Positions 10,863 to 31,675 of a stretch of 32,000 nucleotides of DNA are shown here, piece after piece. The translations under genes and the position numbers were made by a program. Each line of letters starts with the position of its first letter. Position 1 is the stretch's first letter. The notes beneath the pieces are model-generated. The model made no database searches and was not told the DNA's origin. It worked only from the letters and a program-made list of their open reading frames with translations. Source of the stretch: Nostoc punctiforme PCC 73102 (lineage in GTDB: Bacteria > Cyanobacteriota > Cyanobacteriia > Cyanobacteriales > Nostocaceae); contig NC_010628.1 of the NCBI RefSeq assembly GCF_000020025.1, positions 7,020,001 to 7,052,000 of the forward strand. Reading direction: 5' to 3'.

Positions 10863-10970
10863 ATGATCAAAATAGCCACACGTAAATATTTAGGCAAACA
10901 AAATGTCTATGACATTGGAGTTGAGCGCGACCATAATTTTGCACTCAAAAATGGCTTCATAGCTTCTAAT
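10863..10970 (+). other. Split DnaE intein, C-terminal half (IntC, 36 aa), ending in Asn followed by the +1 Cys of the extein
   Basis: The 36 aa match the published Npu DnaE IntC as recalled. The terminal 'ASN|CFN' splice junction is present. Confidence 0.9.
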
Positions 10971-12215
10971 TGTTTCAATAAATCCCATTCGACCGCCTAT
11001 GGTTATGTAACTTATCAGACAGCATATTTAAAAGCTAATTACCCATTGGAATATATGGCAGCCCTGTTAACTGCTAACAGTGGCGATACCGATAAGGTAC
11101 AGAGATATATTACTAACTGTACAAACATGGGTATTTCCATAGATCCGCCAGATATTAATCGTTCTGGTGTTGATTTTACACCGACATTGGGAAAGATTTT
11201 GTTTGGATTTTCGGCGGTGCGTAACGTGGGACAGAATGCGATCGCCTGTATTTTAGAGGCGAGAAATGAGACAGGAGAGTTTAAATCTCTCGCTGATTTT
11301 TGCGATCGTGTGGATTTACGTGCTGTTAACCGTCGGACTCTAGAATCGCTGATTTACTGTGGAGCCTTTGACAAAATTGAATCCAACCGCCAACAGTTAA
11401 TTAATGACTCAGAATTAGTGTATGATTGGGCACAATCTCGCGCCAAAGACAGAGCTAGTGGACAAGGGAATCTCTTTGACTTATTAGGCGATGGATTTTC
11501 TTCTACTCAGAATAAAAGAGTAAATAATGCCTTTGAAACTGCTCCTAAATCTAAACCTGTGACAGATTTACCCCCACAGAAAAAGTTGCAGATGGAGAAA
11601 GAATTATTAGGTTTTTATGTATCAGACCATCCACTGAAATCCTTACGGCAAATAGCACCACTTTTAACTCCAATTAACCTTTCGCAATTAGGAGAGCAAA
11701 GGGAAGACACAAGGCTTTGTGCAGTTGTGATGTTAAATAACGTCAAAAAAGTGGTGACAAAGAAAGGCGATCAGATGGCCATTTTGCAAATAGAAGACCT
11801 AACCACACAATCAGAAGCTGTAGTTTTTCCTAAAACTTATGAACGCATTAGTTCCTTACTTCAAGTTGATACAAGATTGATTATTTGGGGGAAAGTAGAC
11901 CGACGCGACGAGCAAACTCAATTTATTGTTGAAGATGCAGAGCCAGTGGAAACAGTACAAATGGTAATGGTAGAGTTAAATCCCCAGCAAGCAGGTGATA
12001 TGGAAAAACTACATCTCTTGAAAACAATTTTGCAAGAGCATTCAGTAGACAAAGAAAAGGCAAAAATGCCAGTTATTGGAATTATCCAAACTGAAAAGTC
12101 TCGGAAACTTGTTCGCTTGGGTTGGCAGTTTTCTGTACAAGATTCAAGAATAACCGTTCAAGCTTTGCAAAATGCTAGTTTTCCTGCTCATATCAAATCG
12201 CTCACTGGTAGCTAA
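10863..12215 (+). CDS. dnaE: DNA polymerase III alpha subunit, C-terminal fragment (DnaE-C), preceded by the split-intein C-fragment
   Basis: The ORF starts 'MIKIATRKYLGKQNVYDIGVERDHNFALKNGFIASN' and continues with the extein 'CFNKSHSTAYGYVTYQTAYLKANYP...' (Pol III alpha finger and OB-fold region). SD-like 'aaggtagg' lies just upstream of the ATG. Confidence 0.95.
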   Translation: MIKIATRKYLGKQNVYDIGVERDHNFALKNGFIASNCFNKSHSTAYGYVTYQTAYLKANYPLEYMAALLTANSGDTDKVQRYITNCTNMGISIDPPDINRSGVDFTPTLGKILFGFSAVRNVGQNAIACILEARNETGEFKSLADFCDRVDLRAVNRRTLESLIYCGAFDKIESNRQQLINDSELVYDWAQSRAKDRASGQGNLFDLLGDGFSSTQNKRVNNAFETAPKSKPVTDLPPQKKLQMEKELLGFYVSDHPLKSLRQIAPLLTPINLSQLGEQREDTRLCAVVMLNNVKKVVTKKGDQMAILQIEDLTTQSEAVVFPKTYERISSLLQVDTRLIIWGKVDRRDEQTQFIVEDAEPVETVQMVMVELNPQQAGDMEKLHLLKTILQEHSVDKEKAKMPVIGIIQTEKSRKLVRLGWQFSVQDSRITVQALQNASFPAHIKSLTGS

Positions 12216-16624: not shown

Positions 16625-16652
16625 GAGGCAGGAGGCAGGAGGCAGGAGGCAG
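16625..16652. repeat. Heptanucleotide tandem repeat (gaggcag x4)
   Basis: Read directly. It lies in the 198-nt spacer between the ABC ATPase and permease genes. Confidence 0.85.
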
Positions 16653-16750
16653 GAAATAGAAACTCTATCTAATGCGTGATTCCTGCATTTGTATCTCATT
16701 TATTTGCAAAGTTCTGTAAGTAGAGAGTAGGGGCAGATCAGAGAAGAATA

Positions 16751-16790
16751 ACAAATGACAAATGACAAATGACCAATGACTAATGACTAA
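16751..16790. repeat. Heptanucleotide tandem repeat of STRR type (acaaatg/accaatg/actaatg, 5-6 units)
   Basis: Read directly. The array runs across the stop codon (16780-16782) and the last codons ('SH*') of the ATPase gene. Confidence 0.85.
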
Positions 16791-18105
16791 CAACAACTTG
16801 CTCTAAAAATATTTGTCCTGATGGCTCATCGTAGCCGTATATTTCGGCATAACGACCCCAATCTACGACGGTTTTTAATTGTCGTTCGGCTTCTTCTGGG
16901 CTAAAGTGACTTTCTAGGATATCTAATACCAGTTCTTCTGGAATGCGTTGATTATTTTTCGCTTCCAGAAGACGGTAAATTTGCTGTACCAAGCGAATAT
17001 TAGCTAAGAGTTGCGATCGCATGATTTGTTTGCGTTCATCAATACCACCATTGATAAATTCCTGCCCGACTGGTTTCAAGCTAATATCGCCTTCTGCAAG
17101 TTCTACAAAATCCATTAATTTTGCAGCTTCTACAATGGGCAAAATATCATCTACTTCTAATTGCAATTCTTGGGCCAGGCGATATAAGTCTTTTTCTTGA
17201 CGATCTTCTAAAAGTTCCAAAAGACCAGCAATGGAACCAGTTCGTACAGATGGTAAAGATTGATATTTTGCTGGTGGTGTTGCAGGTTCTACAGAGGTAG
17301 TCGTTGTTAGCTCAATTTTTTCTAATTCGGGGTTGGTGATGATTGTATAAACTCGATCTACCAAGGCTTGAAAAGTTGGATGTTTGCGATCGCGGTAATG
17401 GGGTAAAGTCACAGGTAAGTCAGCCCTAATTCTTCCCGGATTGCGTCCGAGAACAATAATTCGATCCGCCATAATTACCGCTTCTTCAATCCCGTGGGTG
17501 ACAATGAGAATAGCTTGGGTGGGTATGCGGCGTTCTAACCATAAATCTAATAATTCAAACCGCAAGTTTTCTGCCGTTAGCACATCTAATGCCGAAAATG
17601 GCTCATCCATACATAATAGTTCTGGTTCTACAGCCAAAGCCCTAGCAAATCCAACTCGCTGACGCATTCCCCCAGAAAGTTCTTTGGGATAGGCATTTTC
17701 AAACCCATCCAAACCAATAATATCAATCATTCGTAGCGCCTTTTGCCGTCGAGAATCTGGCGCTTCTCCTTTTGCTTTTAAACCTAGTTCCACGTTCTCT
17801 AGTACAGTTAACCAAGGATAAAGGGCAAAACTTTGAAAAACAATTGCTACCCCAGGATTTAAACCAACTAGGGGACGGTTATGATATATGACTTCACCTT
17901 GACTGGGAGGAATTAACCCAGCAACTATCCGCATTAAAGTAGATTTGCCTGAACCCGAAGGCCCTAGCAATGCAACTATCTCCCCTGGACGTAACTCAAG
18001 GTTGATATTTTCCAGAATGACAATCTGTTGGCCGTTGGGCTGCTGATAAGATTTGCTGACATTTTTTAGGACGATCAGCTGTTCGGTTGCTGTTTTAAAT
18101 ACCAT
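16780..18105 (-). CDS. ABC transporter ATP-binding protein with a long C-terminal extension
   Basis: 441 aa. Walker A 'GPSGSGKST', signature 'LSGGMRQR', Walker B 'LLCMDEPFSALD', H-loop 'VTHGIEEA'. About 180 extra C-terminal residues follow the ABC domain. Confidence 0.9.
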   Translation of the reverse strand: MVFKTATEQLIVLKNVSKSYQQPNGQQIVILENINLELRPGEIVALLGPSGSGKSTLMRIVAGLIPPSQGEVIYHNRPLVGLNPGVAIVFQSFALYPWLTVLENVELGLKAKGEAPDSRRQKALRMIDIIGLDGFENAYPKELSGGMRQRVGFARALAVEPELLCMDEPFSALDVLTAENLRFELLDLWLERRIPTQAILIVTHGIEEAVIMADRIIVLGRNPGRIRADLPVTLPHYRDRKHPTFQALVDRVYTIITNPELEKIELTTTTSVEPATPPAKYQSLPSVRTGSIAGLLELLEDRQEKDLYRLAQELQLEVDDILPIVEAAKLMDFVELAEGDISLKPVGQEFINGGIDERKQIMRSQLLANIRLVQQIYRLLEAKNNQRIPEELVLDILESHFSPEEAERQLKTVVDWGRYAEIYGYDEPSGQIFLEQVVVSH

Positions 18106-18513: not shown

Positions 18514-18552
18514 ACTATTGCCTATTGCCTATTGCCTCTTGCCTCTTGCCTC
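18514..18552. repeat. Heptanucleotide tandem repeat (cctattg/cctcttg), second copy of the 9491 element
   Basis: actattg cctattg cctattg cctcttg cctcttg cctccaa. The 5' flank 'cagtacaactgagagaagcttctt' resembles 'ccgtacaactcaaaaagccttctt' at 9468-9490. Confidence 0.85.
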
Positions 18553-22155: not shown

Positions 22156-22624
22156 AATAGAACTGCATAGTCTATTTTTGAAGGATTGTTCTCAATTTCA
22201 ATAGCATAACTAACAGCCAACATTAGAGAAAAAACCTGACTTGCACTGGTGAAAAATCTCTCTGATTCTTGGCTGTTTTTTTATGAACCCTTATTACTTA
22301 TACCAATTCAATTAATGATTGCAACACATCTTTGGGTAAAGACGCGATGAATCGTGTCTCTACAAATGGTCTATTTATCGCATTCTTTTTTCAAATTGGT
22401 ATTAGAGCGGCTCTATACTATCAATTCCGAGTTTCGAATTCTTCCATTAGGCTTGTTTTATTTCGATATCTGCATTAAAAAATTTTTGAAAAAAAATGTA
22501 CAATCATAATAAGCATATTTCAGTAGCGCAACTATTGCGCTGGGTGCAAGTCATCTGGAAAGAGATTTCCTACTACCTCCGCATTTTTTTGAGAAGAGCC
22601 GCTTTGGGGATAAGGGTGTTATTG

Positions 22625-23053
22625 ATGCAATTAAAATTGAAATCCGCAGAAGAAGATAAAGATCAAAAAAAGCCAGGACGACTCAATCCTTCTCGAATCC
22701 GAGATCACTTGGCAAATGAGCGTACCTACCTGGCTTGGATGCGGACAGGGATTGCTCTTTTAGGTTTTGGTGTTGTAATTGTGCGTTTGCGTGCCTTCCA
22801 TGTACCTTTAGTACCCCGTCCCGGCAACGGCTGGAAGTTAGGTTTAGTCTTTTCGCTGGTGGGTTTGATTACAGTGTGGCTCTCAACCAGTCACTATTTC
22901 GCTGTCCGTCGTGATATCGAAGAAGATACTTATGAACCGACAGACAGATGGGTGTTACTTTTCAGTCTCGCTGTGATGATTCTCGGAACTGGGGTAATCT
23001 ATTTTGTTTTTACAAGTTCTTTAGATCCATCAAGTCCACTTATCCCGGAATGA
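22625..23053 (+). CDS. DUF202 (YidH-like) membrane protein
   Basis: 'RDHLANERTYLAWMRTGIALLGFG' is the DUF202 signature, and three TM helices follow. The ATG at 22625 is preferred over the track start at 22496. Confidence 0.7.
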   Translation: MQLKLKSAEEDKDQKKPGRLNPSRIRDHLANERTYLAWMRTGIALLGFGVVIVRLRAFHVPLVPRPGNGWKLGLVFSLVGLITVWLSTSHYFAVRRDIEEDTYEPTDRWVLLFSLAVMILGTGVIYFVFTSSLDPSSPLIPE

Positions 23054-23095
23054 TGACTAAGTAGATAGGCAGACTTAATGCCTAGCTACTTATTT

Positions 23096-23818
23096 TCAAA
23101 ACCGCACTTTGTACATTTGGAATAATTCCCCTGATTTTTGCGTGACTATTTTAGCGCCAGCAGCCTTAATAGCTTTTTCCCAGCCAGCTACAGGCTCTAA
23201 AAACACCTCAGCCCCTAAATAGGTTTCTAAAACTGCCCAATCTTCTGCTAAAGGTTGTTCTGGATTAAGGATGTCAAACACAAAATGCCCACCTGGTTTT
23301 AAGACTCGCTTAACTTCTGCCAGTACTGCATTCCAATATTCCAGTGGAAAATAACAGCTAAATCCTGTGGCGATCGCTAGATCAAACTGCTCTGGTGAAT
23401 AGTTCAACTGATGGGCTGCTCCCAACTCAACACCTTTGAACAGCTTAGAATTCAACTGTGGCCCACGAGAGTTAAGGGTGTCGCGTGCCACATTACTAAT
23501 TTCTTGCCCATGAAAAAATGCTTGCCAATCCCGCCAAGGATAGATTAAGAAGCTGATACCACAGCCAATATCTAAACAGTGCTGGTTTTTTTGAGGTTGA
23601 GCAATTTCCCAAAAAGGGGAAGCAATTCTCCCTGAAAAACTACCTCCAATCCACTCACGGAATATCGGCATCGCCTGGACTTCAGTTGGGAGTTCAAAGG
23701 TTTCACGTTGATACTCTCGGTTAAAGCGATAGGCTATTTGGCCTAATCTTTCGTCCCAGTTGCTTGATTTGGCTGAAGTAAAGAGATTTTGGAACTGCGA
23801 ATCAGACTTTTTGGACAT
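23096..23818 (-). CDS. Class I SAM-dependent methyltransferase
   Basis: Motif I 'CLDIGCGISFL' and the post-motif 'LKPGGHFVFDI'. The ATG at 23818 ('MSKKSDSQF') is preferred because the upstream part of the track ORF (to 23893) runs through a dispersed repeat. Confidence 0.8.
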   Translation of the reverse strand: MSKKSDSQFQNLFTSAKSSNWDERLGQIAYRFNREYQRETFELPTEVQAMPIFREWIGGSFSGRIASPFWEIAQPQKNQHCLDIGCGISFLIYPWRDWQAFFHGQEISNVARDTLNSRGPQLNSKLFKGVELGAAHQLNYSPEQFDLAIATGFSCYFPLEYWNAVLAEVKRVLKPGGHFVFDILNPEQPLAEDWAVLETYLGAEVFLEPVAGWEKAIKAAGAKIVTQKSGELFQMYKVRF

Positions 23819-23959
23819 TAGATTTTTGCTACTCTTTCTAAGAATTGTAGTCAAATTTGTTTTGCGATCGCCTCCGGTGGGCGGGTACGCCATCGCCTAC
23901 GGCAGGCGGATACGCCATCGCATACCCATCAAATCTCCTACTGCGGTTTGTCCTAAGTC

Positions 23960-23998
23960 GTCATTGGTCATTAGTAGCAATGACTAATGACTAATGAC
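23960..23998. repeat. Inverted heptamer-repeat hairpin (cattggt/cattagt against aatgact units)
   Basis: 16-bp stem: gtcattggtcattagt (23960-23975) pairs with actaatgactaatgac (23983-23998) with one G-T pair. Further aatgact units run to 24006, ending 2 nt from the stop of the upstream minus-strand gene. Confidence 0.8.
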
Positions 23999-24007
23999 TA
24001 ATGACTG

Positions 24008-24712
24008 CTATTCAACTTTTTCATACCAGATACCTACTTTCTCAAAAGCACCATAAGCAAGCTTGAGAAAATTCACGACTCTCTGTTTCCCAATTATCCC
24101 AAATTCTTTATACTCTCTAGCCTCTGCAAAAGTCAGGCGATTTTGGTCAATTATGTTTCTTTCTCTGTATGCTAACTTCGGAAAATCTATAACTTTTATC
24201 TGATATTTATTTACTATGTTCTGAAAGTTGGAGTCTGACTCTAGATGCTCCCAATCATCACACAGCCCCAAATTCCTCACCAGAATATGAGGGATTTTTT
24301 CACCGTAAGTATTCACTGACTGAGTAAACAGGTTGATGCTGTCATATCCTCCTGTCGATATAAACCATTTACAAAACATCACTCCCTGCGAACTTCCTAG
24401 TTCAAGTAATTGATTAGATTCAATCCACCCTTGCACTGCTCTATGCGATTGTGCGGCTAAATTCACAATTACTGGCCTCTCTATGGCCCACTCGAATATT
24501 CTATCTGCCTTATTTGCCTGTCGTTCGTTCTCACTAAACACAGCATACTTACATATTTCCTTATATACCCCTGCCACATCTGGATTCGATCTATCTGTCT
24601 CCACTGGTACAAATGGGATTCTCTTATCCAGACAATACTGAATCATTGTCCTGGCAAAGAGAGATTTTCCTACCCCGCCTTTTTCACCATCCACAAAATG
24701 AATCGTCGGCAT
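24008..24712 (-). CDS. Orphan ParA-superfamily P-loop ATPase, TraL (IncP)-like
   Basis: The ATG at 24712 is preceded by SD 'gaggtgg'. 'MPTIHFVDGEKGGVGKS' carries the deviant Walker A KGGxGKS at the extreme N-terminus. The overall size (234 aa), 'ETDRSNP' and the C-terminal 'RLTFAEA' recall conjugative TraL as remembered. No other transfer genes are nearby. Confidence 0.6.
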   Translation of the reverse strand: MPTIHFVDGEKGGVGKSLFARTMIQYCLDKRIPFVPVETDRSNPDVAGVYKEICKYAVFSENERQANKADRIFEWAIERPVIVNLAAQSHRAVQGWIESNQLLELGSSQGVMFCKWFISTGGYDSINLFTQSVNTYGEKIPHILVRNLGLCDDWEHLESDSNFQNIVNKYQIKVIDFPKLAYRERNIIDQNRLTFAEAREYKEFGIIGKQRVVNFLKLAYGAFEKVGIWYEKVE

Positions 24713-25069
24713 TACAGCCACCTCTAATACTTATTAAAGCCTGATACATCTTTCCCAAAATAAGAACTTTTTGGCCGTTGCCGCCTAGTTGTTTTGGTGG
24801 TTTTATGAGAAAGTATAACCGTGATTTGGATATATTCCAACAGTCTCATTTTACACAGGTAAAGTCCGCACTTCGGCAGGCTCAGTGACCATCTGCGCGG
24901 ACTAAGACAAAACAAGGGGCTTAAGCCTCTTGTTGTAAGTTGATTGAGAACTAAAAACCGAAAATTTAGGTTTTCAGACATTCTTTACAACAAGAATTAG
25001 GAATTTTGAGAAGAAATTGCCAAGGGAAGTTGTTTAAAATAAGCCTGGAGTTACTTGCAGATCAACACT

Positions 25070-25288
25070 ATGGCGGAAATTCAGTTAGCGATTGAGGGTG
25101 AAGATGCGATGCCTACGGCGGGCTACGCCTACGCAGCAACAGAAGTACTTTTGGCAATTCCTGGTATATCTGGTAACTATGCAGTGAGTTCAGATGCACC
25201 GGAAAGAGAAGGAATAACAGCAACAGTTGCTACCATCGTTGGTATTGTTGGGGGTGCGATCGCTATTGCTGAACAAATCCGCAAGTGA
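25070..25288 (+). CDS. Small protein with a hydrophobic helix; the reading frame continues past an in-frame TGA to 25417
   Basis: The ATG at 25070 gives 'MAEIQLAIEGEDA...ITATVATIVGIVGGAIAIAEQIRK*'. The same frame reads on as 'YQEYKAKQSGKRIEKVLIVGRNGRRLLLEDATLEEIRQILES*' (TAG at 25415-25417). It carries a dispersed-repeat insertion ('MPTAGYAYA'). It lies 81 nt upstream of the CHAT gene on the same strand. Confidence 0.5.
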   Translation: MAEIQLAIEGEDAMPTAGYAYAATEVLLAIPGISGNYAVSSDAPEREGITATVATIVGIVGGAIAIAEQIRK

Positions 25289-25498
25289 TATCAGGAGTAT
25301 AAAGCCAAACAGTCTGGTAAAAGAATTGAAAAGGTGTTGATTGTCGGGCGCAATGGTAGGCGACTTCTTTTAGAGGATGCAACCCTGGAAGAGATTCGCC
25401 AAATTTTAGAATCGTAGAGATGCGATTAATCGCGTCTGTTGTTACGGAATTGGGGGTGGTAGACTTGGGGTAAATACTGAAGTCTCAGGATTCAGAAC

Positions 25499-28400
25499 GT
25501 GCAAACGCTCCACCTCGACCTTAAGCCAGTTGATGATAATTACGTAGAGTTACGTTACTTTGTTGATAATCCTAACCAGTATGAGAAGCGATCGCTCTGT
25601 TTAACAGAAATCGCCGACTTGATTAAGTTGGCTGAGAGAGATTATTACGTTTCGTTTTTCCCAGAGGATTATACGGTAACTGGGCGGCGGTTGTATAACT
25701 GGTTGGATGGGAGCGATCGCTGGCTACAACCCTTGCTAGATAAGTATCGGCGGGAGGGGATTGTGTTAGCGATCGCTACATCTGAAAAACTTGCTCATCT
25801 GCCTTGGGAAGTGTTGCACGATGGCAATGGTTTTTTAGTGCAGCGTGTCCCGGCTATTGTTCCGGTGCGGTGGGTATCGGATAGCACGGTAAAAAAATTG
25901 ACCATTGACGGGGAAGCAGAAAACCGGGCGCTGCAAGTTTTGTTTATGGCGACTTCGCCGTTGAATGTCGAGCCTGTGCTGGATTTTGAGGGGGAGGAAG
26001 CACGGATTTTGGAGGCGACAAAGCGGCAACCTTTAGCGCTGACGGTGGAAGAAAGCGGCTGTTTGTCGGAGTTGGGTTATTTAGTCGATGGTTACGGCAA
26101 AGATTATTTTGATGTTTTACACCTGACGGGTCATGCTACTTTTCAAGATGGGCAACCGCGCTTTATTACAGAAACCGCAACAGGTGAAGCTTTCTATGCG
26201 AGTGCTGGGGATATTGCCCAAGAATTACAATTTCAACTGCCTAAACTCATTTTCCTCTCTGGTTGTCGCACTGGGCAAGCTGGCAATTCGGGATCTGTGC
26301 CGTCAATGGCAGAAGAGTTGCTCAAATCAGGAGCAAAAGCGGTTTTGGGTTGGGGTCAAAAGGTTTTAGATGCCGATGCGACAGCCGCAGCAGCCGCATT
26401 ATATGAGGAATTATCAGCCGGAAAGCAGATCGCTGAGGCTGTGGCTTGTACTTATCAAGCATTAATTAAGAACAACGCGTGGGATTGGCATTTGTTGCGG
26501 CTGTATGCAGCAGGTAATTTACCAAGTTCATTAGTCACACCCAGAGGAAAACCTGGACGGAAACCAGCACCACCGCTTTCTGTTTCTACCCAGTTTTTAG
26601 ATGCCGCAGGTAAAGTCAAAGTCCCGACGCGGGAAAGTTTTGTTGGTCGTCGCCGCCAATTGCAAAGTTGTTTGCGAGTGCTGAGTCAATCAACCGATGA
26701 GGTTGGGGTGTTGATTCATGGCATGGGCGGTTTGGGTAAAAGTAGTTTAGCAGCTAGGCTGTGCGACAGACTGCCGAATTTTGAGCGTGTTGTCTGGGTG
26801 GGAAGAATCGATGAAGCGAGTTTGGTGAGTCGTTTGGCGGAAAAGTTGGATGACAACGAACAACGCAAAAGCCTACAAAATTATGATGAAGAATTGAGAT
26901 TTCGGCTGCGGCGAGTTTTCCAGGATTTGCATGAGCAAGCAAAGCCGTTTTTGTTGGTGCTGGATGACTTTGAAGTGAATTTAGAGACCTCTCCCCCAAC
27001 CCCTCTCCGAGGCGGAGAGGGGAGTCCAGTTCCCCCCTTCCCTAGCAGGGAAGGGGGGTTAGGGGGGTTAGGTCGCTTGCAAACGGAAGCAGCAGAGGTA
27101 ATGAAGGCTTTAGTTTGGGCAATTAAAGAAAATTACACTTCCCATCGCATCATTATTACTTGCCGTTACGATTTTGAATTTACTCTGTTGCAGTATTTCC
27201 ACAAGCAGCCGTTGGATGCACTGCAAGGTGCAGATTTGCAAAAAAAGTTTAATCGCCTCACAGCCTTTAGTGCTAAATCTCAGGTGGATGAGGCGTTAAA
27301 ATCGCAGGCGCAGAAGTTGGCGGATGGTAATCCCCGCTTGCTGGAATGGTTGGATAAGATTCTGCAAAATACAACTGTTGATGTGGCAGCAATTTTGAAT
27401 CGGTTGGCAGCAGATCCGGTGGAGTTGCGAGAGCAAGTTTTGGCAGAGGCGCTGCTGCAACAGATGGATTCAACTATGCGGGAGATGTTGGCGCGGGGTT
27501 TGGTGTTTGAGTTGCCAATACCAAGGGAAGCTTTAGCCGCAGTTTGTGACACTATCCCCAATTTGGAAGATTATATTAGTCGGGCGGTGGCGTTGGGGCT
27601 GTTGGAAGTGAGTCATGATGAGGCGTTACGAGTGCCGCGCATTTTGCCAGTGCAGTTACCAGAAGATGGGGAAGCTTTGCATAAGCAGGCGGCTGAGGTG
27701 CTGTATCGTCTGTGGTGGGAAGAGGTGAAAACAGAAATTGAGGAACAACGCTTAGAAATTCATCGGTTGGCGTTCCGAGGAAAGGTAAACAAGATTACTG
27801 TAGAAATTGCAGGGAAACTTGCAAGAAGTTGGAAAAGTCAAAGCCGATTTCGAGAAGCTGTTCAATTATGCAAATCAACTTTAGAACTTGCTGAAGATTA
27901 TTTAGTCTTACACGAGTTAGCTCGCTCTGAACAAGAATTAGGTGATGTAAATAAAGCTCAAACGCATTATCAACAAGCGTTAGATAACTGTCCAGCAGAA
28001 GACGAAGAAGAAAAAGCAGCAATTATTCACAACTTGGGAATACTCAAAGCCAATAGCGGAGAAATAGAAGAAGCGATCGCCCTTTATCAACAATCCCTCG
28101 CTATCACTGAACAAATCGGCAATGTCCAAACTCAGGCGGCGACGTTGCACTGTTTGGGAATACTCAAAGCCAATAGCGGAGAAATAGAAGAAGCGATCGC
28201 CCTTTATCAACAATCCCTCGCTATCACTGAACAAATCGGCGATGTCCAAGGTAAGGCGGCGACGTTGCACTGTTTGGGAATGCTCAAAGCCAATAGGGGA
28301 GAAATAGAAGAAGCGATCGCCCTTTATCAACAATCCCTTGCTATCGAAGAACAAATCGGCAATGTCCAAGGTCAGGCGGCGACGTTGCACGAAATGGGAG

Positions 28401-29251
28401 TACTCAAAGCCAATAGGGGAGAAATAGAAGAAGCGATCGCCCTTTATCAACAATCCCTCGCTATCACTGAACAAATCGACCATGTCCAAACTCAGGCGGC
28501 GACGTTGCACGAAATGGGAGTACTCAAAGCCAATAGGGGAGAAATAGAAGAAGCGATCGCCCTTTATCAACAATCCCTTGCTATCGAAGAACAAATCGGC
28601 AATGTCCAAGGTCAGGCGGCGACGTTGCACGAAATGGGAGTACTCAAAGCCAATAGGGGAGAAATAGAAGAAGCGATCGCCCTTTATCAACAATCCCTCG
28701 CTATCAAAGAACAAATCGGCGATGTCCAAGGTCAGGCGGCGACGTTGCACGAAATGGGAGTACTCAAAGCCAATAGGGGAGAAATAGAAGAAGCGATCGC
28801 CCTTTATCAACAATCCCTCGCTATCAAAGAACAAATCGGCGATGTCAAAACTCAGGCGGCGACGTTTCACCAACTGGGAATACTCAAAGCCGATAGCGGA
28901 GAAATAGAAGAAGCGATCGCCCTTTATCAACAATCCCTCGCTATCACTGAACAAATCGGCAATGTCCAAACTCAGGCGGCGACGTTGCACTGTTTGGGAA
29001 TACTCAAAGCCAATAGCGGAGAAATAGAAGAAGCGATCGCCCTTTATCAACAATCCCTCGCTATCACTGAACAAATCGGCGATGTCCAAACTCAGGCTAT
29101 GACTTTGTGGTGGTTAGGACATATAGCAGAACAACAGGGAAATTATAATCAAGCACTAGATTATTTGCAGCCAGCCTTGGAGATATTGCAGCGTATCCAA
29201 TCTCCTGATGCTGAGGAAGTTAGGCAAATGGTAGCGAGGTGCAAGATTTAA
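25499..29251 (+). CDS. CHAT (caspase-like protease) / P-loop STAND-like NTPase / TPR-repeat protein, 1250 aa
   Basis: GTG start. CHAT dyad candidates are His212 in 'DVLHLTGHATF' (26132-26134) and Cys256 in 'LIFLSGCRTGQ' (26264-26266). Walker A 'HGMGGLGKSS' starts at 26720 and Walker B 'FLLVLDDFE' is at 26951-26968. The C-terminal 400 aa are TPR-like repeats 'GEIEEAIALYQQSLAI.EQIG'. Confidence 0.9.
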   Translation: MQTLHLDLKPVDDNYVELRYFVDNPNQYEKRSLCLTEIADLIKLAERDYYVSFFPEDYTVTGRRLYNWLDGSDRWLQPLLDKYRREGIVLAIATSEKLAHLPWEVLHDGNGFLVQRVPAIVPVRWVSDSTVKKLTIDGEAENRALQVLFMATSPLNVEPVLDFEGEEARILEATKRQPLALTVEESGCLSELGYLVDGYGKDYFDVLHLTGHATFQDGQPRFITETATGEAFYASAGDIAQELQFQLPKLIFLSGCRTGQAGNSGSVPSMAEELLKSGAKAVLGWGQKVLDADATAAAAALYEELSAGKQIAEAVACTYQALIKNNAWDWHLLRLYAAGNLPSSLVTPRGKPGRKPAPPLSVSTQFLDAAGKVKVPTRESFVGRRRQLQSCLRVLSQSTDEVGVLIHGMGGLGKSSLAARLCDRLPNFERVVWVGRIDEASLVSRLAEKLDDNEQRKSLQNYDEELRFRLRRVFQDLHEQAKPFLLVLDDFEVNLETSPPTPLRGGEGSPVPPFPSREGGLGGLGRLQTEAAEVMKALVWAIKENYTSHRIIITCRYDFEFTLLQYFHKQPLDALQGADLQKKFNRLTAFSAKSQVDEALKSQAQKLADGNPRLLEWLDKILQNTTVDVAAILNRLAADPVELREQVLAEALLQQMDSTMREMLARGLVFELPIPREALAAVCDTIPNLEDYISRAVALGLLEVSHDEALRVPRILPVQLPEDGEALHKQAAEVLYRLWWEEVKTEIEEQRLEIHRLAFRGKVNKITVEIAGKLARSWKSQSRFREAVQLCKSTLELAEDYLVLHELARSEQELGDVNKAQTHYQQALDNCPAEDEEEKAAIIHNLGILKANSGEIEEAIALYQQSLAITEQIGNVQTQAATLHCLGILKANSGEIEEAIALYQQSLAITEQIGDVQGKAATLHCLGMLKANRGEIEEAIALYQQSLAIEEQIGNVQGQAATLHEMGVLKANRGEIEEAIALYQQSLAITEQIDHVQTQAATLHEMGVLKANRGEIEEAIALYQQSLAIEEQIGNVQGQAATLHEMGVLKANRGEIEEAIALYQQSLAIKEQIGDVQGQAATLHEMGVLKANRGEIEEAIALYQQSLAIKEQIGDVKTQAATFHQLGILKADSGEIEEAIALYQQSLAITEQIGNVQTQAATLHCLGILKANSGEIEEAIALYQQSLAITEQIGDVQTQAMTLWWLGHIAEQQGNYNQALDYLQPALEILQRIQSPDAEEVRQMVARCKI
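26987..27073 (+). repeat. GC-rich double-hairpin element inserted in frame in the NTPase domain
   Basis: Hairpin 1: cccctctccg (27000-27009) pairs with cggagagggg (27013-27022). Hairpin 2: ccccccttccct (27032-27043) pairs with agggaagggggg (27047-27058). Both stems are perfect. The translation is low-complexity, 'SPPTPLRGGEGSPVPPFPSREGGLGGLG'. The 'cccccaacccc' motif also occurs in the 19146-19344 element. Confidence 0.7.
28016..29095 (+). repeat. Nine tandem, near-identical 120-nt (40-aa) TPR-like coding repeats
   Basis: The period is exactly 120 nt. A core of about 66 nt ('ctcaaagcc.atag.ggagaaatagaagaagcgatcgccctttatcaacaatccct.gctatc') is invariant apart from three variable sites in all nine units, and each unit contains one GCGATCGC. 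Confidence 0.95.
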
Positions 29252-29271
29252 TTCGTAATTCGTAATTCGTA
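29250..29271. repeat. Heptanucleotide tandem repeat (aattcgt x3)
   Basis: Read directly. It begins within the stop codon of the CHAT gene. Confidence 0.8.
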
Positions 29272-29386
29272 GTACCCTACGGGAAGCAAGCTACGTAATT
29301 GGGAAAGTCGGAATTTAATTTGGCTTTGCGGGTTGGCAGCGATCGCCTATTTTGAAGAATTCCTGTAAGCGATCGCCTATTTTGCG

Positions 29387-29680
29387 TTAAGTTGATTTAT
29401 CCACGAGTCTTTGAACTCCATTAATGAGCCTTTGATACTCATTAAAGAGGTTCTGAACTCCATTAATGAGTCTTTGATACTCATTAAAGAGGTTCTGAAC
29501 TCCATTAATGAGCCTTTGAGCTTCATTAAAGAGTCTTTGAACTTCATTAATGAGCCTTTGATACTCATTAAAGAGGTTCTGAACTCCATTAATGAGTCTT
29601 TGATACTCGTTCAGCAGTTTTTTAGACTTGTGGCTTAGTTGTTGGAGATTGCGATCGCCATAATTCACCCCGAAGCACAT
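29387..29680 (-). CDS. Candidate small coiled-coil protein encoded by the 42-nt repeat (frame and strand uncertain)
   Basis: 97-aa ORF with an ATG start. It reads as heptads 'LFNEYQR LINGVQN' with hydrophobic a/d/e positions and no prolines. The other open frames are less helix-compatible. Confidence 0.35.
   Translation of the reverse strand: MCFGVNYGDRNLQQLSHKSKKLLNEYQRLINGVQNLFNEYQRLINEVQRLFNEAQRLINGVQNLFNEYQRLINGVQNLFNEYQRLINGVQRLVDKST
29401..29617. repeat. Tandem 42-nt repeat (two 21-nt half-units), about 5 copies
   Basis: The units start at 29414, 29456, 29498, 29540 and 29582: 'aactccattaatgagcctttgatactcattaaagaggttctg' with a few substitutions. Confidence 0.9.
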
Positions 29681-29803
29681 CCTAAACCAAAGAATCTGGA
29701 TTTACACCAAGCACTCTGAGACGTTCTGCTAGCATTTCCAGGATATTCTTTGCCTTCACGGAACCCGCAAACATACTTAACTAGTAAACGTAATATTTTG
29801 AGT

Positions 29804-29994: not shown

Positions 29995-30711
29995 TTAGCC
30001 TAAATCGAAAAGCAAGATTTCGCCGCCGATGTTGGTGCTAATTTCTAGCTGTTCTTCGCCATTGATTTGCACACCATCGCCGGCTCTGAGTTCTTCTCCA
30101 TTTAAATCGACTATACCTTGGGCTACTTGTAACCAGGCATAGCGATCGCTTTTGACTTGATAATTAACAACATCACCTGACTCTAAAACAGATGTATATA
30201 GCTCAACATCTTGGTGAATTGTTACAGCACCATCGCGCCCATCTTTAGAGGCAATTAAGCGGAGTTTACCGCGCTTTTCTTCGAGAGGAAAAGCTTTTTG
30301 TTCGTATCTTGGCGTTATTCCTTCTCGATCGGGAAGAATCCAGATTTGCAGTAAGTGCAGTGGTTCAGTTGGTGAAGGATTAAATTCGCTGTGGCTGATT
30401 CCAGTTCCAGCACTCATAATTTGGGCATCACCGGGGCGAATTACCGAACCAGTCCCCAAGCTGTCTTTATGCTCTACAGCACCTTCTAACACATAAGTGA
30501 GGATTTCCATGTCACGATGACTGTGGGTAGGGAATCCTGCACCGGGAGCGATGCGATCGTCGTTAATCACGCGCAGAGAGCGAAATCCCATACGGTTGGG
30601 ATCGTAAAAACTACCGAAAGAAAATGTGTGATAGCTATCGAGCCAGCCCATTTTCGCGTGACCACGGGCATTGCGATCGTGAATTAAGTGGGTAATTGTA
30701 TTTTGAGACAT
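29995..30711 (-). CDS. Pirin-family protein (bicupin, quercetinase-like)
   Basis: 238 aa. '[65 protein letters not shown]' is the canonical pirin N-terminal cupin with metal-binding His residues. Confidence 0.9.
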
Positions 30712-31102
30712 AAATCTACCTCTTTGTTAATGAGTATTTAGTTAGGAACGACTCAATTTTGGATTTTAGATTTTAGACTTTCCTGCGGAACGCTACGCGT
30801 AGCTTGCTTCCCCGCAGGGATACGCTCAGTGAACTATTTTAAATTGCAGGAAAAATCTAAAGTTGGTATTTGAAATCAAAATCGAATTAGCATACTTTTT
30901 CACTCACCTAATAACTTCTTCAAGTTTAAGTATTAATTTTGATGGATGACTTGTTGAAGATATTGGTGAATTTCTTGACTTCCTTTTGAACTATTTCAAT
31001 AGTAAGGTATATACATATAAATGAAAAGTACGCACTTAAAAGTGACGTACTTACCAAAAAGATACTATTAGATTTAAGAAAGACTACTTTTCTCAGAAGT
31101 GC

Positions 31103-31675
31103 TTATTTTACAGCAGCAGGAATCTTTTGAGTTTTAGTAGTACCAGCGTTACCATTCTCTTCTTTGATTTCTGCTATTTGTAGATGAGCTTCTAAGAACC
31201 AGAGTCGTTTGTCAATGGTACGAGAAATTTCGGTGTAAAGATCGGCAGTATCGAGGTCGTCTAATTCATCAGTTTTTGCGATCGCTTCTCTAATATGTTT
31301 CGCATAGAGTGCAAAGCGATCTGCTAAGGCTGTCACATGATCTTTACCATCCAAAATATCTAAGGGATATTCTGGCAGAATTGAATTACTAGCTGCGGCG
31401 CGGGCTGTTCCGAAAGCGTATCCGCCTAAAGCTGTGACGCGTTCAGCTACTAAATCGATGTATCCTTCCAATTCCCCAGCAAGTTCATCAAATAATAGAT
31501 GTAGCTGATAGAAGTCAGTTCCTTTAACATTCCAATGCGCTTGCTTTGCTTGGGTTTTTAAATCCGAAGTAGCTGCTAAGGTTTGGTTGAGAAGTACCAC
31601 GATTTGAACTCTCGCTTTGGCGGGAATGTCAATACGGGTAGGGTAAAGACGTGATGCAATGCTGTTGTCGCTCAT
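31103..31675 (-). CDS. dps: Dps-family ferritin-like DNA-protection protein
   Basis: 190 aa. 'KQAHWNVKGTDFYQLHLLFDE' and 'ERVTALGG' are Dps ferroxidase-site motifs. Confidence 0.9.
   Translation of the reverse strand: MSDNSIASRLYPTRIDIPAKARVQIVVLLNQTLAATSDLKTQAKQAHWNVKGTDFYQLHLLFDELAGELEGYIDLVAERVTALGGYAFGTARAAASNSILPEYPLDILDGKDHVTALADRFALYAKHIREAIAKTDELDDLDTADLYTEISRTIDKRLWFLEAHLQIAEIKEENGNAGTTKTQKIPAAVK

What the first reader, a model, noticed from the sequence alone, without database searches (positions are those of the whole stretch)
28016..29095. Nine 120-nt TPR units nearly identical at the DNA level, with substitutions confined to about 11 codons and almost all nonsynonymous
I aligned the nine units by eye.
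- The central core of about 66 nt is invariant apart from three variable sites in all units.
- Differences fall in a few codons: unit positions 6 (N/C/E/Q), 7 (L/M), 9 (I/M/V), 13-14 (N/D, S/R), 31 (T/E/K), 35-36 (G/D, N/D/H) and 38-40 (Q/K, T/G, Q/K).
- I found only one synonymous difference (ctc/ctt in 'SLA'), and it is linked to the Glu variant at position 31.
- Half-units recur in different combinations. The second halves of units 3 and 5 are identical, and the first halves of units 4-7 are identical. This indicates unequal crossover or gene conversion.

High internal conservation with hypervariable surface positions is the pattern described for sensor repeats of fungal NLRs. It would suit a rapidly re-specifiable ligand-binding surface. 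Each unit also carries a HIP1 site.
Basis: seen in the sequence. Interest (0 to 1): 0.75.

Follow-up and report, generated by a model that had tools for sequence, protein, structure and literature searches.

The report
Shuffling sensor repeats in cyanobacterial NLR-like protein
The nine near-identical 40-residue TPR units are the C-terminal sensor arm of a Nostoc caspase-like (CHAT) / NB-ARC / TPR "NLR-type" protein, and they evolve by repeat shuffling plus amino-acid diversification at ligand-groove positions; this pattern is real but already described for fungal and, more briefly, bacterial NLRs.

Summary
Window 28016-29095 is nine in-frame 120-nt units (92% nt, 85% aa identity) inside a 1250-aa ORF (25499-29251, +). 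The ORF encodes CHAT protease + NB-ARC/P-loop + TPR.

- **Where variation falls.** It concentrates in a few codons. The four codons most variable in 36 related arrays (31, 9, 6, 36; ranked without this window) carry about 10 nonsynonymous events on 9.7 sites here. All silent sites carry 2.8 events on 26.7 sites (P = 2e-4). Whole-unit pN/pS (1.5-2.1) is not significant on its own.
- **Orthologues.** Syntenic Nostoc orthologues carry 6-14 units with different unit content. Silent divergence among the window's units (0.04) is 5-7 times lower than between orthologous N-termini (0.20-0.30).
- **Structure.** An AlphaFold model (pLDDT about 94 in the repeats) matches the LGN/Pins TPR domain. Positions 2, 6 and 9 coincide with LGN ligand-contact positions. 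Position 31 lies one helical turn from another contact position. Convex-face positions stay conserved.
- **Limits.** No coordinates were available for a direct surface map. Function is untested.

Highly conserved repeats in cyanobacterial NLRs, including CHAT-headed ones, are already published. This is a new member of a known kind.

The parts
25499..29251 (+). Whole gene: 1250-aa CHAT / NB-ARC (STAND P-loop) / TPR protein with NLR-like architecture
   Evidence: ORF list. Pfam: CHAT 1.5e-22, AAA_16 2.1e-10, NB-ARC 1.3e-7, TPR_12 8.8e-65. 1841 homologues, mostly Nostocales.
25679..26485 (+). CHAT caspase-like protease domain (residues 61-329). Candidate catalytic residues are His212 (26132-26134) and Cys256 (26264-26266).
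   Evidence: Pfam CHAT hit. H212 in 'HLTGHA' and C256 in 'LSGCRTG' are at least 97% conserved in 80 homologues. Their assignment as the catalytic dyad rests on motif knowledge and was not tested.
26639..26974 (+). P-loop NTPase core of the NB-ARC/AAA_16 domain (residues 381-492). Walker A is GMGGLGKSS (408-416); Walker B is LLVLDD (485-490).
   Evidence: Pfam hits. Both motifs are invariant in 80 homologues.
26987..27085 (+). In-frame GC-rich hairpin mini-element inside the NTPase domain. It encodes TSPPTPLRGGEGSPVPPFPSREGGLGGLGRLQT and replaces 'PRNESYVLQS' of other orthologues.
   Evidence: Two perfect hairpins (10-bp and 12-bp stems) inside a 14-nt imperfect inverted repeat. Present in some orthologues and absent in others.
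27776..28015 (+). Two degenerate N-terminal TPR-like units that precede and cap the conserved array
   Evidence: In-register translation. Helices in the AlphaFold model. TPR Pfam hits start near residue 792-806.
28016..29095 (+). Nine 120-nt / 40-aa highly conserved TPR units. In each unit, helix A spans position 37 of the previous unit to position 13, and helix B spans positions 17-34. The hypervariable codons are 6, 9, 31 and 36; codons 7, 13, 14, 38 and 39 vary less.
29096..29251 (+). Divergent C-terminal capping TPR (AMTLWWLGHIAEQQGNYNQALDYLQPALEILQRIQSPDAE), tail and stop codon. It is conserved in nearly all homologues.

Best explanation
**What it is.** The array is the ligand-sensing arm of a bacterial NLR-like STAND protein.

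**Shown:**
- The domain order is an N-terminal CHAT caspase-like protease, an NB-ARC/P-loop switch and a C-terminal TPR superhelix. The superhelix comprises 2 degenerate units, 9 near-identical units and 1 cap.
- The units are kept near-identical at the DNA level and exchange segments, so blocks of codons occur in new combinations.
- Unit number and content differ between strains.
- Amino-acid change is concentrated far above the silent rate at a few codons.

**Inferred:**
- Those codons line the inner groove of the superhelix. They lie on the exposed face of helix A, on the inward-facing end of helix B and on the B-to-A' turn. An extended peptide or protein surface would be bound there, as in LGN/Pins.
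- Unequal crossover and gene conversion between units, acting with selection for new residues, re-specify the binding surface quickly.
- By analogy with other STAND/NLR proteins, ligand binding would release the NTPase switch and drive oligomerisation. That would activate the CHAT protease by proximity. The most likely setting is a conflict: phage or other invader sensing, or non-self recognition in a filamentous organism.
For: **Architecture.** Pfam domains. The candidate catalytic His/Cys and Walker A/B motifs are invariant.

**Array.**

**Recombination.**
- 48 of 78 site pairs show four gametes. Blocks are codons 6-9(14) | 28+31 | 36 | 39.
- Identical half-units occur in different combinations.

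**Homogenisation.**
- Silent divergence among the window's units is 0.040. It is 0.20-0.30 between orthologous N-terminal regions.
- Other orthologous arrays range from 0.07 to 0.34, so the highly conserved state is lineage-specific.

**Site-specific diversification.**
- In 36 arrays the within-array mismatch peaks at positions 31 (0.70-0.73), 9, 6 and 36.
- In the window these four codons have pN 0.43 against pS 0.04, and the rest of the unit has pN 0.018.
- Event counts are 10.2 per 9.7 sites against 2.8 per 26.7 sites, P = 2e-4.

**Structure.**
- AlphaFold pLDDT is about 94 in the repeats.
- The best PDB matches are LGN/Pins TPR, TM 0.83-0.87, rmsd 2.2-2.6 A.
- LGN ligand contacts map to unit positions 2, 5, 6, 9, 12 and 27.
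- Canonical TPR concave positions are 2, 5, 9, 12, 13, 33 and 34.
- Convex-face helix-B positions stay conserved, with mean mismatch about 0.10 against about 0.35 for the exposed arc of helix A.

**Strain variation.**
- Syntenic orthologues have 6-14 units.
- Three Gloeotrichia echinulata genomes have 9, 8 and 7 units with different signatures.

**Precedent.** Fungal NLR TPRs show the same pattern. Highly conserved repeats in NLRs are reported in Cyanobacteria.
Against: - Whole-unit pN/pS in the window (1.5-2.1) is not significantly above 1 (P = 0.09-0.18). The signal depends on partitioning sites.
- Pairwise counts on recombining repeats are not a formal codon-model test.
- Silent sites of the unit may be partly constrained or exchanged between strains. 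The consensus-unit pS against L024 is 0.04 and against L003 is 0.06, below their N-terminal pS. Such constraint would inflate pN/pS.
- Position 31, the most variable, is on helix B. Position 36 is in a loop.
- There is no hit to any defined defence-system model beyond a generic TPR profile.
- The neighbours are ordinary genes (methyltransferase, DUF202, pirin, Dps) in conserved synteny, not a defence island.
- No ligand, no protease target and no phenotype is known.
Confidence: 0.68

Rival explanations
1. Recent tandem amplification with relaxed constraint. The units are alike simply because they duplicated recently. The variable codons are unconstrained surface sites that drift neutrally, with no adaptive diversification.
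For: Whole-unit pN/pS is not significantly above 1. Outside the four hot codons, the nonsynonymous rate per site (0.108) equals the silent rate (0.106) in the window. The sample is only nine units.
Against: - Neutral sites cannot exceed the silent rate, yet the four hot codons do so about 10-fold. They do so 4-10-fold in the four most conserved arrays.
- Solvent-exposed convex-face positions (18, 19, 22, 25, 26, 29, 32, 33) are not variable.
- The same hot positions recur in 36 arrays.
- Multi-nucleotide codon changes are clustered in few codons (P = 0.016).
Confidence: 0.12
2. The protein is a housekeeping or developmental protease scaffold, in the manner of the HetF CHAT protease. Its TPR array recruits endogenous partners, and the variation tunes or tolerates those partners rather than tracking foreign ligands.
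For: - The gene sits in a conserved syntenic block among ordinary genes in many Nostoc genomes.
- No defence-system model matches.
Against: - Unit number and groove residues differ between strains whose flanking proteins are 96-99% identical.
- The NLR N-terminus also diverges 5-7 times faster at replacement sites than its flanks.
- A tripartite STAND architecture with highly conserved repeats is statistically associated with NLR-type conflict proteins.
Confidence: 0.15
3. The array, or its copy number and order, is an assembly artefact produced by mis-resolving near-identical repeats.
For: - Many short-read contigs of relatives end at or just before the array: L002, L008, L011, L015, L018, L021, L036, L039.
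- The only public contig identical to this gene stops at window 27737.
- No reads are available here.
Against: - The array is exactly in frame. It is bounded by diverged cap units that are conserved in homologues.
- All nine units differ from each other by at least 3 nt.
- Comparable arrays of 5-9 units sit on chromosome-scale contigs of 5.4-8.4 Mb.
Confidence: 0.05
4. The variation is written by a targeted mutagenesis system such as a diversity-generating retroelement.
For: Diversity-generating retroelements are common in cyanobacterial conflict systems. Variation here is sharply focused on a few codons.
Against: - No reverse transcriptase or template repeat is present among the window's ORFs.
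- Only 7 of 19 variable columns have A as the consensus base, and the substitution spectrum is mixed.
- The target is a TPR, not a C-type-lectin/FGS fold.
Confidence: 0.01

Closest known systems
Fungal NLRs with highly internally conserved TPR/ANK/WD repeats (e.g. [quoted passage not shown]
   Same: - Tripartite layout of effector, NB-ARC and repeats.
- Repeats 80-90% identical.
- Repeat-number polymorphism and repeat shuffling.
- Positive selection at a few positions that map to the concave TPR face.
   Different: - The host is a bacterium and the effector is a CHAT protease.
- The unit is 40 residues (LGN-like), not the 42-residue kinesin-light-chain type.
- The most variable site (31) lies on helix B.
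- No allorecognition genetics exist for it.
Bacterial NLR-like proteins with highly conserved WD/TPR repeats, as noted by Dyrka et al. 2020 and the 2026 GBE survey, and the naturally occurring high-identity TPR-like protein of Marold et al. 2015
   Same: The phenomenon and the taxa are the same: Cyanobacteria, NB-ARC/TPR, and CHAT listed among the N-terminal domains.
   Different: In the text I could read, those papers report occurrence only. They give no per-codon analysis, recombination test or orthologue comparison for a cyanobacterial TPR array. Marold et al. describe 42-residue units, a fact taken from a citing paper; the paper itself could not be opened.
LGN/Pins (GPSM2) TPR domain
   Same: - It is the best structural and sequence match among solved structures: TM 0.83-0.87, 40-residue period, 'xLGx' helix A.
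- It binds extended peptides in the inner groove through positions that align with unit positions 2, 5, 6, 9, 12 and 27.
   Different: It is a eukaryotic polarity adaptor with diverged repeats (20% identity to this protein). It has no NTPase or protease. It serves as a fold and binding-mode analogue only.
Antiphage STAND NTPases (Avs, bNACHT)
   Same: STAND NTPase with a C-terminal repeat sensor and an N-terminal effector; ligand-triggered oligomerisation (own knowledge; cited).
   Different: No PADLOC model for these families matches. Their sensors are not reported as near-identical repeats. Their effectors are usually nucleases or similar rather than CHAT.
TPR-CHAT (Csx29) of type III-E CRISPR 'Craspase', and the HetF protease
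   Same: A CHAT caspase-like protease combined with, or associated with, TPRs (own knowledge).
   Different: These have no NB-ARC switch and no highly conserved array. Their activation is RNA-guided (Csx29) or developmental (HetF).

Membership tests
NLR-like STAND protein with highly internally conserved repeats (sensu Dyrka 2014/2020) | Tripartite architecture: N-terminal effector, central NB-ARC/NACHT NTPase, C-terminal superstructure-forming repeats | tested here: met
   CHAT 61-329, AAA_16/NB-ARC 381-492 and TPR from about residue 792 to 1245. Walker A and B are invariant.
NLR-like STAND protein with highly internally conserved repeats (sensu Dyrka 2014/2020) | Repeat units about 80-90% identical to each other | tested here: met
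   Mean pairwise identity is 85% for amino acids and 91.7% for nucleotides.
NLR-like STAND protein with highly internally conserved repeats (sensu Dyrka 2014/2020) | Repeat-number polymorphism and reshuffling between strains or alleles | tested here: met
   Syntenic orthologues have 6 (L003, L017), 7 (L009), 9 (L016, window) and 13-14 (L007) units. Gloeotrichia echinulata genomes have 9, 8 and 7. The four-gamete test is positive. Within-strain alleles were not sampled.
NLR-like STAND protein with highly internally conserved repeats (sensu Dyrka 2014/2020) | Positive diversifying selection on a few positions per repeat | tested here: met
   At codons 6, 9, 31 and 36, chosen from other arrays, there are 10.2 nonsynonymous events per 9.7 sites against 2.8 silent events per 26.7 sites, P = 2e-4. 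The four-codon pN is 0.39-0.45 against pS 0.04-0.10 in the four most conserved arrays. This is a counting method, not a codon model, and recombination is not modelled.
NLR-like STAND protein with highly internally conserved repeats (sensu Dyrka 2014/2020) | Variable positions lie on the ligand-binding (concave) surface | tested here: inconclusive
   Positions 2, 6, 9, 13 and 39 fall on the exposed arc of helix A. Positions 2, 6 and 9 align with LGN contact residues. Positions 31 and 36 were placed only by helical phase, because no coordinates were available.
NLR-like STAND protein with highly internally conserved repeats (sensu Dyrka 2014/2020) | Role in non-self recognition or regulated cell death | not testable with these tools
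   No experimental data. No defence-island context.
Tetratricopeptide repeat (TPR) | Helix-turn-helix unit with the canonical small/large residue pattern (4, 7, 8, 11, 20, 24, 27) | tested here: met
   TPR_12 8.8e-65, TPR_10, TPR_2 and TPR_1 hits. TPR_2 profile position 1 equals unit position 1. L4, L7, G8, A20, Y24 and S27 are present. The model shows two helices per unit.
CHAT (caspase-like) protease | Conserved catalytic His and Cys | tested here: met
   H212 and C256 are at least 97% conserved in 80 homologues within the Pfam CHAT region. Catalytic activity was not tested.
Diversity-generating retroelement target | Nearby reverse transcriptase, a template repeat and adenine-specific substitutions | tested here: not met
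   No reverse transcriptase among the window's ORFs. The substitution spectrum is mixed.
Catalogued antiphage STAND systems (Avs, bNACHT and others in PADLOC) | Match to a family HMM | tested here: not met
   Only the generic 'TPR' profile PDLC01169 matches.

The most novel reading that the evidence does not exclude
The locus could be a fast, recombination-driven receptor-diversification device in a multicellular bacterium. HIP1-bearing, DNA-identical unit cores would act as recombination substrates, so groove residues are reshuffled on the timescale of strain divergence or even within cultures. The whole gene would be maintained as old, divergent alleles inside an otherwise conserved chromosomal block. 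Its N-terminus shows 2-fold higher silent and 5-7-fold higher replacement divergence than its flanks. That is the signature expected of balancing selection at an allorecognition or immune locus, which would make it a bacterial counterpart of fungal het genes.
Probability: 0.15. Interest if true: 0.7.

Novelty: new member of a known kind. Interest (0 to 1): 0.35.

Why it matters
NLR-type receptors with near-identical, shuffling repeats are thought to let fungi re-specify recognition quickly. The published bacterial record I could read only notes that such repeats exist.

This locus gives a worked bacterial example:
- the variable residues coincide with groove-contact positions of a solved homologue;
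- the convex face stays fixed;
- unit number and content change between strains whose flanking genes are nearly identical.

If the protein is an immune or non-self sensor that drives a caspase-like protease, it offers a tractable system in Nostoc, where genetics is available. It could test whether repeat shuffling re-targets a prokaryotic NLR, and what such receptors recognise.

For genome work, it also flags a class of genes that short-read assemblies routinely break or mis-size.

Tried and rejected
- **Whole-unit dN/dS.** Pooled pN/pS is 1.47-2.07. The deficit of synonymous events has P = 0.09-0.18, so it is not decisive alone. I moved to site classes defined from independent arrays.
- **Model coordinates.** The structure tool returns only confidence and secondary structure, and no file appears in /data. 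Solvent-accessibility mapping was therefore impossible. I used helical phase together with a residue-level alignment to LGN contact residues.
- **Primary papers not held.** The LGN structure papers (PMC3248549, PMC3158460) and Marold et al. 2015 (DOI and PMC4811334) could not be opened. I used open papers that state the contacts instead.
- **Diversity-generating retroelement.** Rejected.
- **Defence-system membership.** No specific PADLOC hit. NCBIfam gives only sub-threshold TPR look-alikes.
- **Exact-protein look-up.** The window protein is not on record. The only identical public contig is a 2.7-kb Logan unitig that ends upstream of the array, so it says nothing about copy number.
- **Antisense 369-aa ORF across the array (27980-29089, minus strand).** I treat this as a by-product of a stop-free repeat. 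The sense frame carries all the domain hits.
- **Downstream 97-aa 'coiled-coil' ORF.** Related loci keep the DNA repeat but open different frames, so it is probably not a conserved protein partner.
- **Rfam.** Nothing in the window.

Full report

Yes.
- Tandem Repeats Finder gives one array at 28035-29097 with period 120, 8.9 copies, 93% matches and score 1755.
- Cut at 28016, the nine units are in frame with a 1250-aa ORF at 25499-29251 on the + strand.
- Variable nucleotide columns number 24 in all nine units and 19 in units 2-9.
- Unit nt 28-90 contains only three variable columns: 37, 42 and 84.
- Each unit contains one HIP1 octamer, GCGATCGC, which encodes Ala-Ile-Ala.

Corrections:
- There are four synonymous differences rather than one. 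These are GCA/GCG twice in unit 1, TTG/CTG in unit 8, and CTC/CTT in units 3 and 5.
- Codons 3 and 4 also vary.

**2. What gene is it?**

- Pfam places a CHAT caspase-like protease at residues 61-329. A P-loop NTPase (AAA_16, NB-ARC) lies at 381-492. TPR_10/TPR_12-type repeats run from about residue 792 to the C-terminus.
- In 80 homologues the 'TGH' histidine (H212), the 'SGC' cysteine (C256), Walker A (GMGGLGKSS) and Walker B (LLVLDD) are invariant. The protein therefore looks functional.
- The conserved array is flanked by two degenerate TPR units upstream. A divergent cap unit downstream is itself conserved across homologues.
- This is the tripartite NLR-like STAND layout long noted in filamentous cyanobacteria.
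- The window also encodes the C-terminal half of a split DnaE. That ORF begins with the exact Npu DnaE intein-C sequence. The source is therefore Nostoc punctiforme or a very close relative.

**3. Family context**

- A protein search returned 1841 relatives. The best are 83-86% identical and are almost all from Nostocales.
- A profile of the 40-residue unit finds 2-16 units per homologue. Internal identity ranges from 0.30 to 0.95.
- In 36 arrays with at least 5 units and at least 75% internal identity, within-array mismatch is sharply peaked. Values are 0.73 at position 31, 0.68 at 9, 0.66 at 6 and 0.54 at 36.
- A second tier near 0.3 comprises positions 2, 13, 38 and 39. The core positions (10-12, 15-29, 32-35) are mostly below 0.15.
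- The same four positions top the ranking when the window is left out.

**4. Selection**

- Pooled Nei-Gojobori pN/pS across the window's units is 1.47 for all nine and 2.07 for units 2-9. The deficit of synonymous events is not significant by itself (P = 0.09-0.18).
- Partitioning by site changes the picture. In the window the four hot codons have pN 0.43. Array-wide pS is 0.040 and pN in the rest of the unit is 0.018.
- Arrays L024, L012 and L003 behave alike, with hot-codon pN 0.39-0.45 and pS 0.07-0.10.
- I also counted minimal mutational events in units 2-9. The hot codons carry 10.2 nonsynonymous events on 9.7 sites. All silent sites carry 2.8 events on 26.7 sites (binomial P = 2e-4).
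- Elsewhere the nonsynonymous rate per site (0.108) equals the silent rate (0.106).
- Variable columns are clustered into fewer codons than expected (13 against 16.3, P = 0.016).
- These are counting methods on recombining sequences. A codon model with recombination control was not available.

**5. Recombination and concerted evolution**

- Of 78 pairs of informative columns, 48 show all four gametes.
- Incompatibilities fall between four blocks rather than within them. The blocks are codons 6-9(14), codons 28+31, codon 36 and codon 39.
- The four-nucleotide CTT+GAA haplotype occurs on two different 5' backgrounds. This favours exchange over recurrent mutation.
- Silent divergence among the window's units (0.040) is 5-7 times lower than between the N-terminal regions of orthologues (pS 0.20-0.30, pN 0.05-0.07).
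- Arrays at the same syntenic locus in other strains range from 0.07 to 0.34. Homogenisation or recent expansion is therefore lineage-specific.

**6. Orthologue comparison**

- Twelve fetched loci share conserved flanking genes with the window. Upstream these are a methyltransferase, usually a 237-aa P-loop protein, and usually DUF202. Downstream these are pirin and usually Dps.
- Among them the array has 6 (L003, L017), 7 (L009), 9 (L016) or 13-14 (L007) units.
- L003 and L007 have flanking proteins 96-99% identical to the window's (pooled pN about 0.01, pS about 0.11).
- Their NLR N-termini have pN 0.048-0.057 and pS 0.20-0.26. The whole gene is a divergence hot spot in a conserved block.
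- Three Gloeotrichia echinulata genomes carry 9, 8 and 7 units with different hypervariable signatures.

**7. Structure**

- A single-sequence AlphaFold model of residues 743-1250 has mean pLDDT 88, and about 94 across the repeats.
- Helix A runs from position 37 of one unit to position 13 of the next. Helix B spans positions 17-34. The loops are at 14-16 and 35-36.
- Foldseek ranks LGN/Pins TPR domains first (TM 0.83-0.87, rmsd 2.2-2.6 A over about 350 columns). phmmer against PDB sequences agrees.
- In LGN, helix A lines the inner groove and helix B the outside. The Asn of each Leu-Gly-Asn triplet hydrogen-bonds the ligand backbone. That Asn aligns with unit position 9.
- I used the printed alignment to 4g2v_A/7ep7. 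An offset of +10 was verified at all seven cited residues. With it, the Gpsm2-Whirlin contacts map as follows:

| Unit position | LGN contact residue(s) |
|---|---|
| 2 | R136, R236 |
| 5 | Y139 |
| 6 | N100 |
| 12 | K106 |
| 27 | D81, R221 |

- For canonical TPRs, positions 2, 5, 9, 12, 13, 33 and 34 are the most variable and all lie on the concave face. Pfam TPR_2 aligns 1:1 with unit numbering.
- By 100-degree helical phase, positions 38, 2, 9, 13, 6 and 39 fall in one 100-200 degree arc of helix A, opposite the conserved hydrophobic positions.
- Position 31 lies one turn (i+4) beyond position 27, on the inward-facing arc of helix B. Position 27 reaches the ligand in LGN.
- Position 36 is the residue before the next helix A.
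- Convex-face helix-B positions (18, 19, 22, 25, 26, 29, 32, 33) are conserved within arrays, with mean mismatch about 0.10. The exposed arc of helix A has about 0.35.
- Variation therefore tracks one face, not exposure in general.
- The placement of positions 31 and 36 remains an inference.

**8. Mechanism**

Shown:
- the domain architecture;
- intact catalytic and nucleotide-binding motifs;
- a TPR superhelix;
- segment exchange between units;
- strain-to-strain change in unit number and groove residues;
- a site-specific excess of replacement change.

Inferred:
- The groove binds a peptide or protein ligand.
- Binding releases the NTPase switch, and oligomerisation activates the CHAT protease.
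- The selective agent is an invader or a non-self signal.

Evidence that weakens the immune reading:
- only a generic TPR profile matches in PADLOC;
- the neighbours are ordinary genes.

**9. Comparison with what is known**

- Fungal NLR TPR and ANK repeats show high internal conservation, repeat-number polymorphism and positive selection on the concave face.
- Dyrka et al. state that bacterial NLRs also have WD and TPR repeats with 80-90% internal identity. They suggest these repeats might diversify in a similar way.
- A 2026 survey reports highly conserved repeats enriched in ATPase-containing proteins across domains of life, Cyanobacteria included. CHAT appears among the N-terminal domains of its curated examples.
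- The finding is therefore a new, well-characterised member of a known kind.

**10. Rivals**

- Neutral amplification with relaxed constraint is contradicted by the 10-fold excess at the hot codons and by the conserved convex face.
- A purely endogenous scaffold role cannot be excluded.
- Assembly artefact is unlikely for the existence of the array. Copy number remains unverified, and many short-read contigs of relatives break at these arrays.
- A diversity-generating retroelement is excluded.

**11. Verdict**

The novelty class is a new member of a known kind, and interest is moderate to low.

Noticed in passing
window 10863-12215 (+): The ORF begins MIKIATRKYLGKQNVYDIGVERDHNFALKNGFIASN|CFN. 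This is the Npu DnaE split-intein C fragment fused to the DnaE C-terminal part (HHH_6 + OB fold). It identifies the source as Nostoc punctiforme or a very close relative.
   Followed up: partly
window 26987-27085 (+), inside the NLR gene: An in-frame GC-rich mini-element follows Walker B directly. It has two perfect hairpins (10-bp and 12-bp stems) inside an imperfect inverted repeat, and it adds 33 residues (TSPPTPLRGGEGSPVPPFPSREGGLGGLGRLQT) in place of 'PRNESYVLQS'. It is present in some orthologues and absent in others. Homologues carry other in-frame inserts elsewhere, such as 'LLAPHPLTPSPQARRGD...' and 'FLSHPYQEGDTGG'.
   Followed up: partly
window 29405-29608 (intergenic, downstream of the NLR stop): A 21/42-nt quasi-palindromic tandem repeat (9.7 or 4.7 copies). 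The 3' region 29252-29700 folds into a long imperfect hairpin (-137 kcal/mol, z = -6.3). Equivalent repeats lie 150-700 nt downstream of the NLR gene in most related loci, syntenic or not. Different reading frames are open in different loci, so it is probably a DNA or RNA element and not the 97-aa 'coiled-coil' ORF.
   Followed up: partly
window 25499-27895 compared with flanks 22496-24721 and 29995-31675: Against the closest syntenic strains (L003, L007), the NLR N-terminal region has pN 0.048-0.057 and pS 0.20-0.26. The flanking genes have pN about 0.01 and pS about 0.11. The whole gene, not only its repeats, is more diverged than its neighbourhood.
   Followed up: partly
window 28016-29095 compared with L024 and L003 arrays: Consensus repeat units of different strains differ less at silent sites than their N-terminal regions do. 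Consensus-unit pS is 0.04 against L024 and 0.06 against L003; N-terminal pS is 0.27 and 0.20. This hints at silent-site constraint or exchange of repeat units between strains or paralogues. With only about 27 silent sites it is noisy.
   Followed up: partly
window 16625-16654, 16747-16796, 18515-18551, 23979-24006: Short tandem heptamer repeats (GAGGCAG, AATGACA, CTATTGC, AATGACT) of the cyanobacterial STRR type lie in intergenic stretches.
   Followed up: no
L048 (Logan SRR12750585 contig), matching window 25106-27737: A public short-read unitig is 100% identical to the window up to 27737. It then ends in poly-A junk, about 280 nt before the conserved array. The same or a near-identical strain therefore exists in a public run, but the repeat region is unassembled there.
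   Followed up: yes
window 24008-24721 (-): A 237-aa P-loop protein with only a weak TraL/ParA-like match (42.9 bits against a cut-off of 360) and no Pfam hit. It lies immediately upstream of the NLR gene and is co-syntenic with it in Nostoc genomes, but it is absent from non-syntenic NLR loci.
   Followed up: partly
window 27980-29089 (-): A 369-aa antisense ORF runs through the whole array because the repeat lacks stop codons in that frame. There is no evidence that it is a gene.
   Followed up: no
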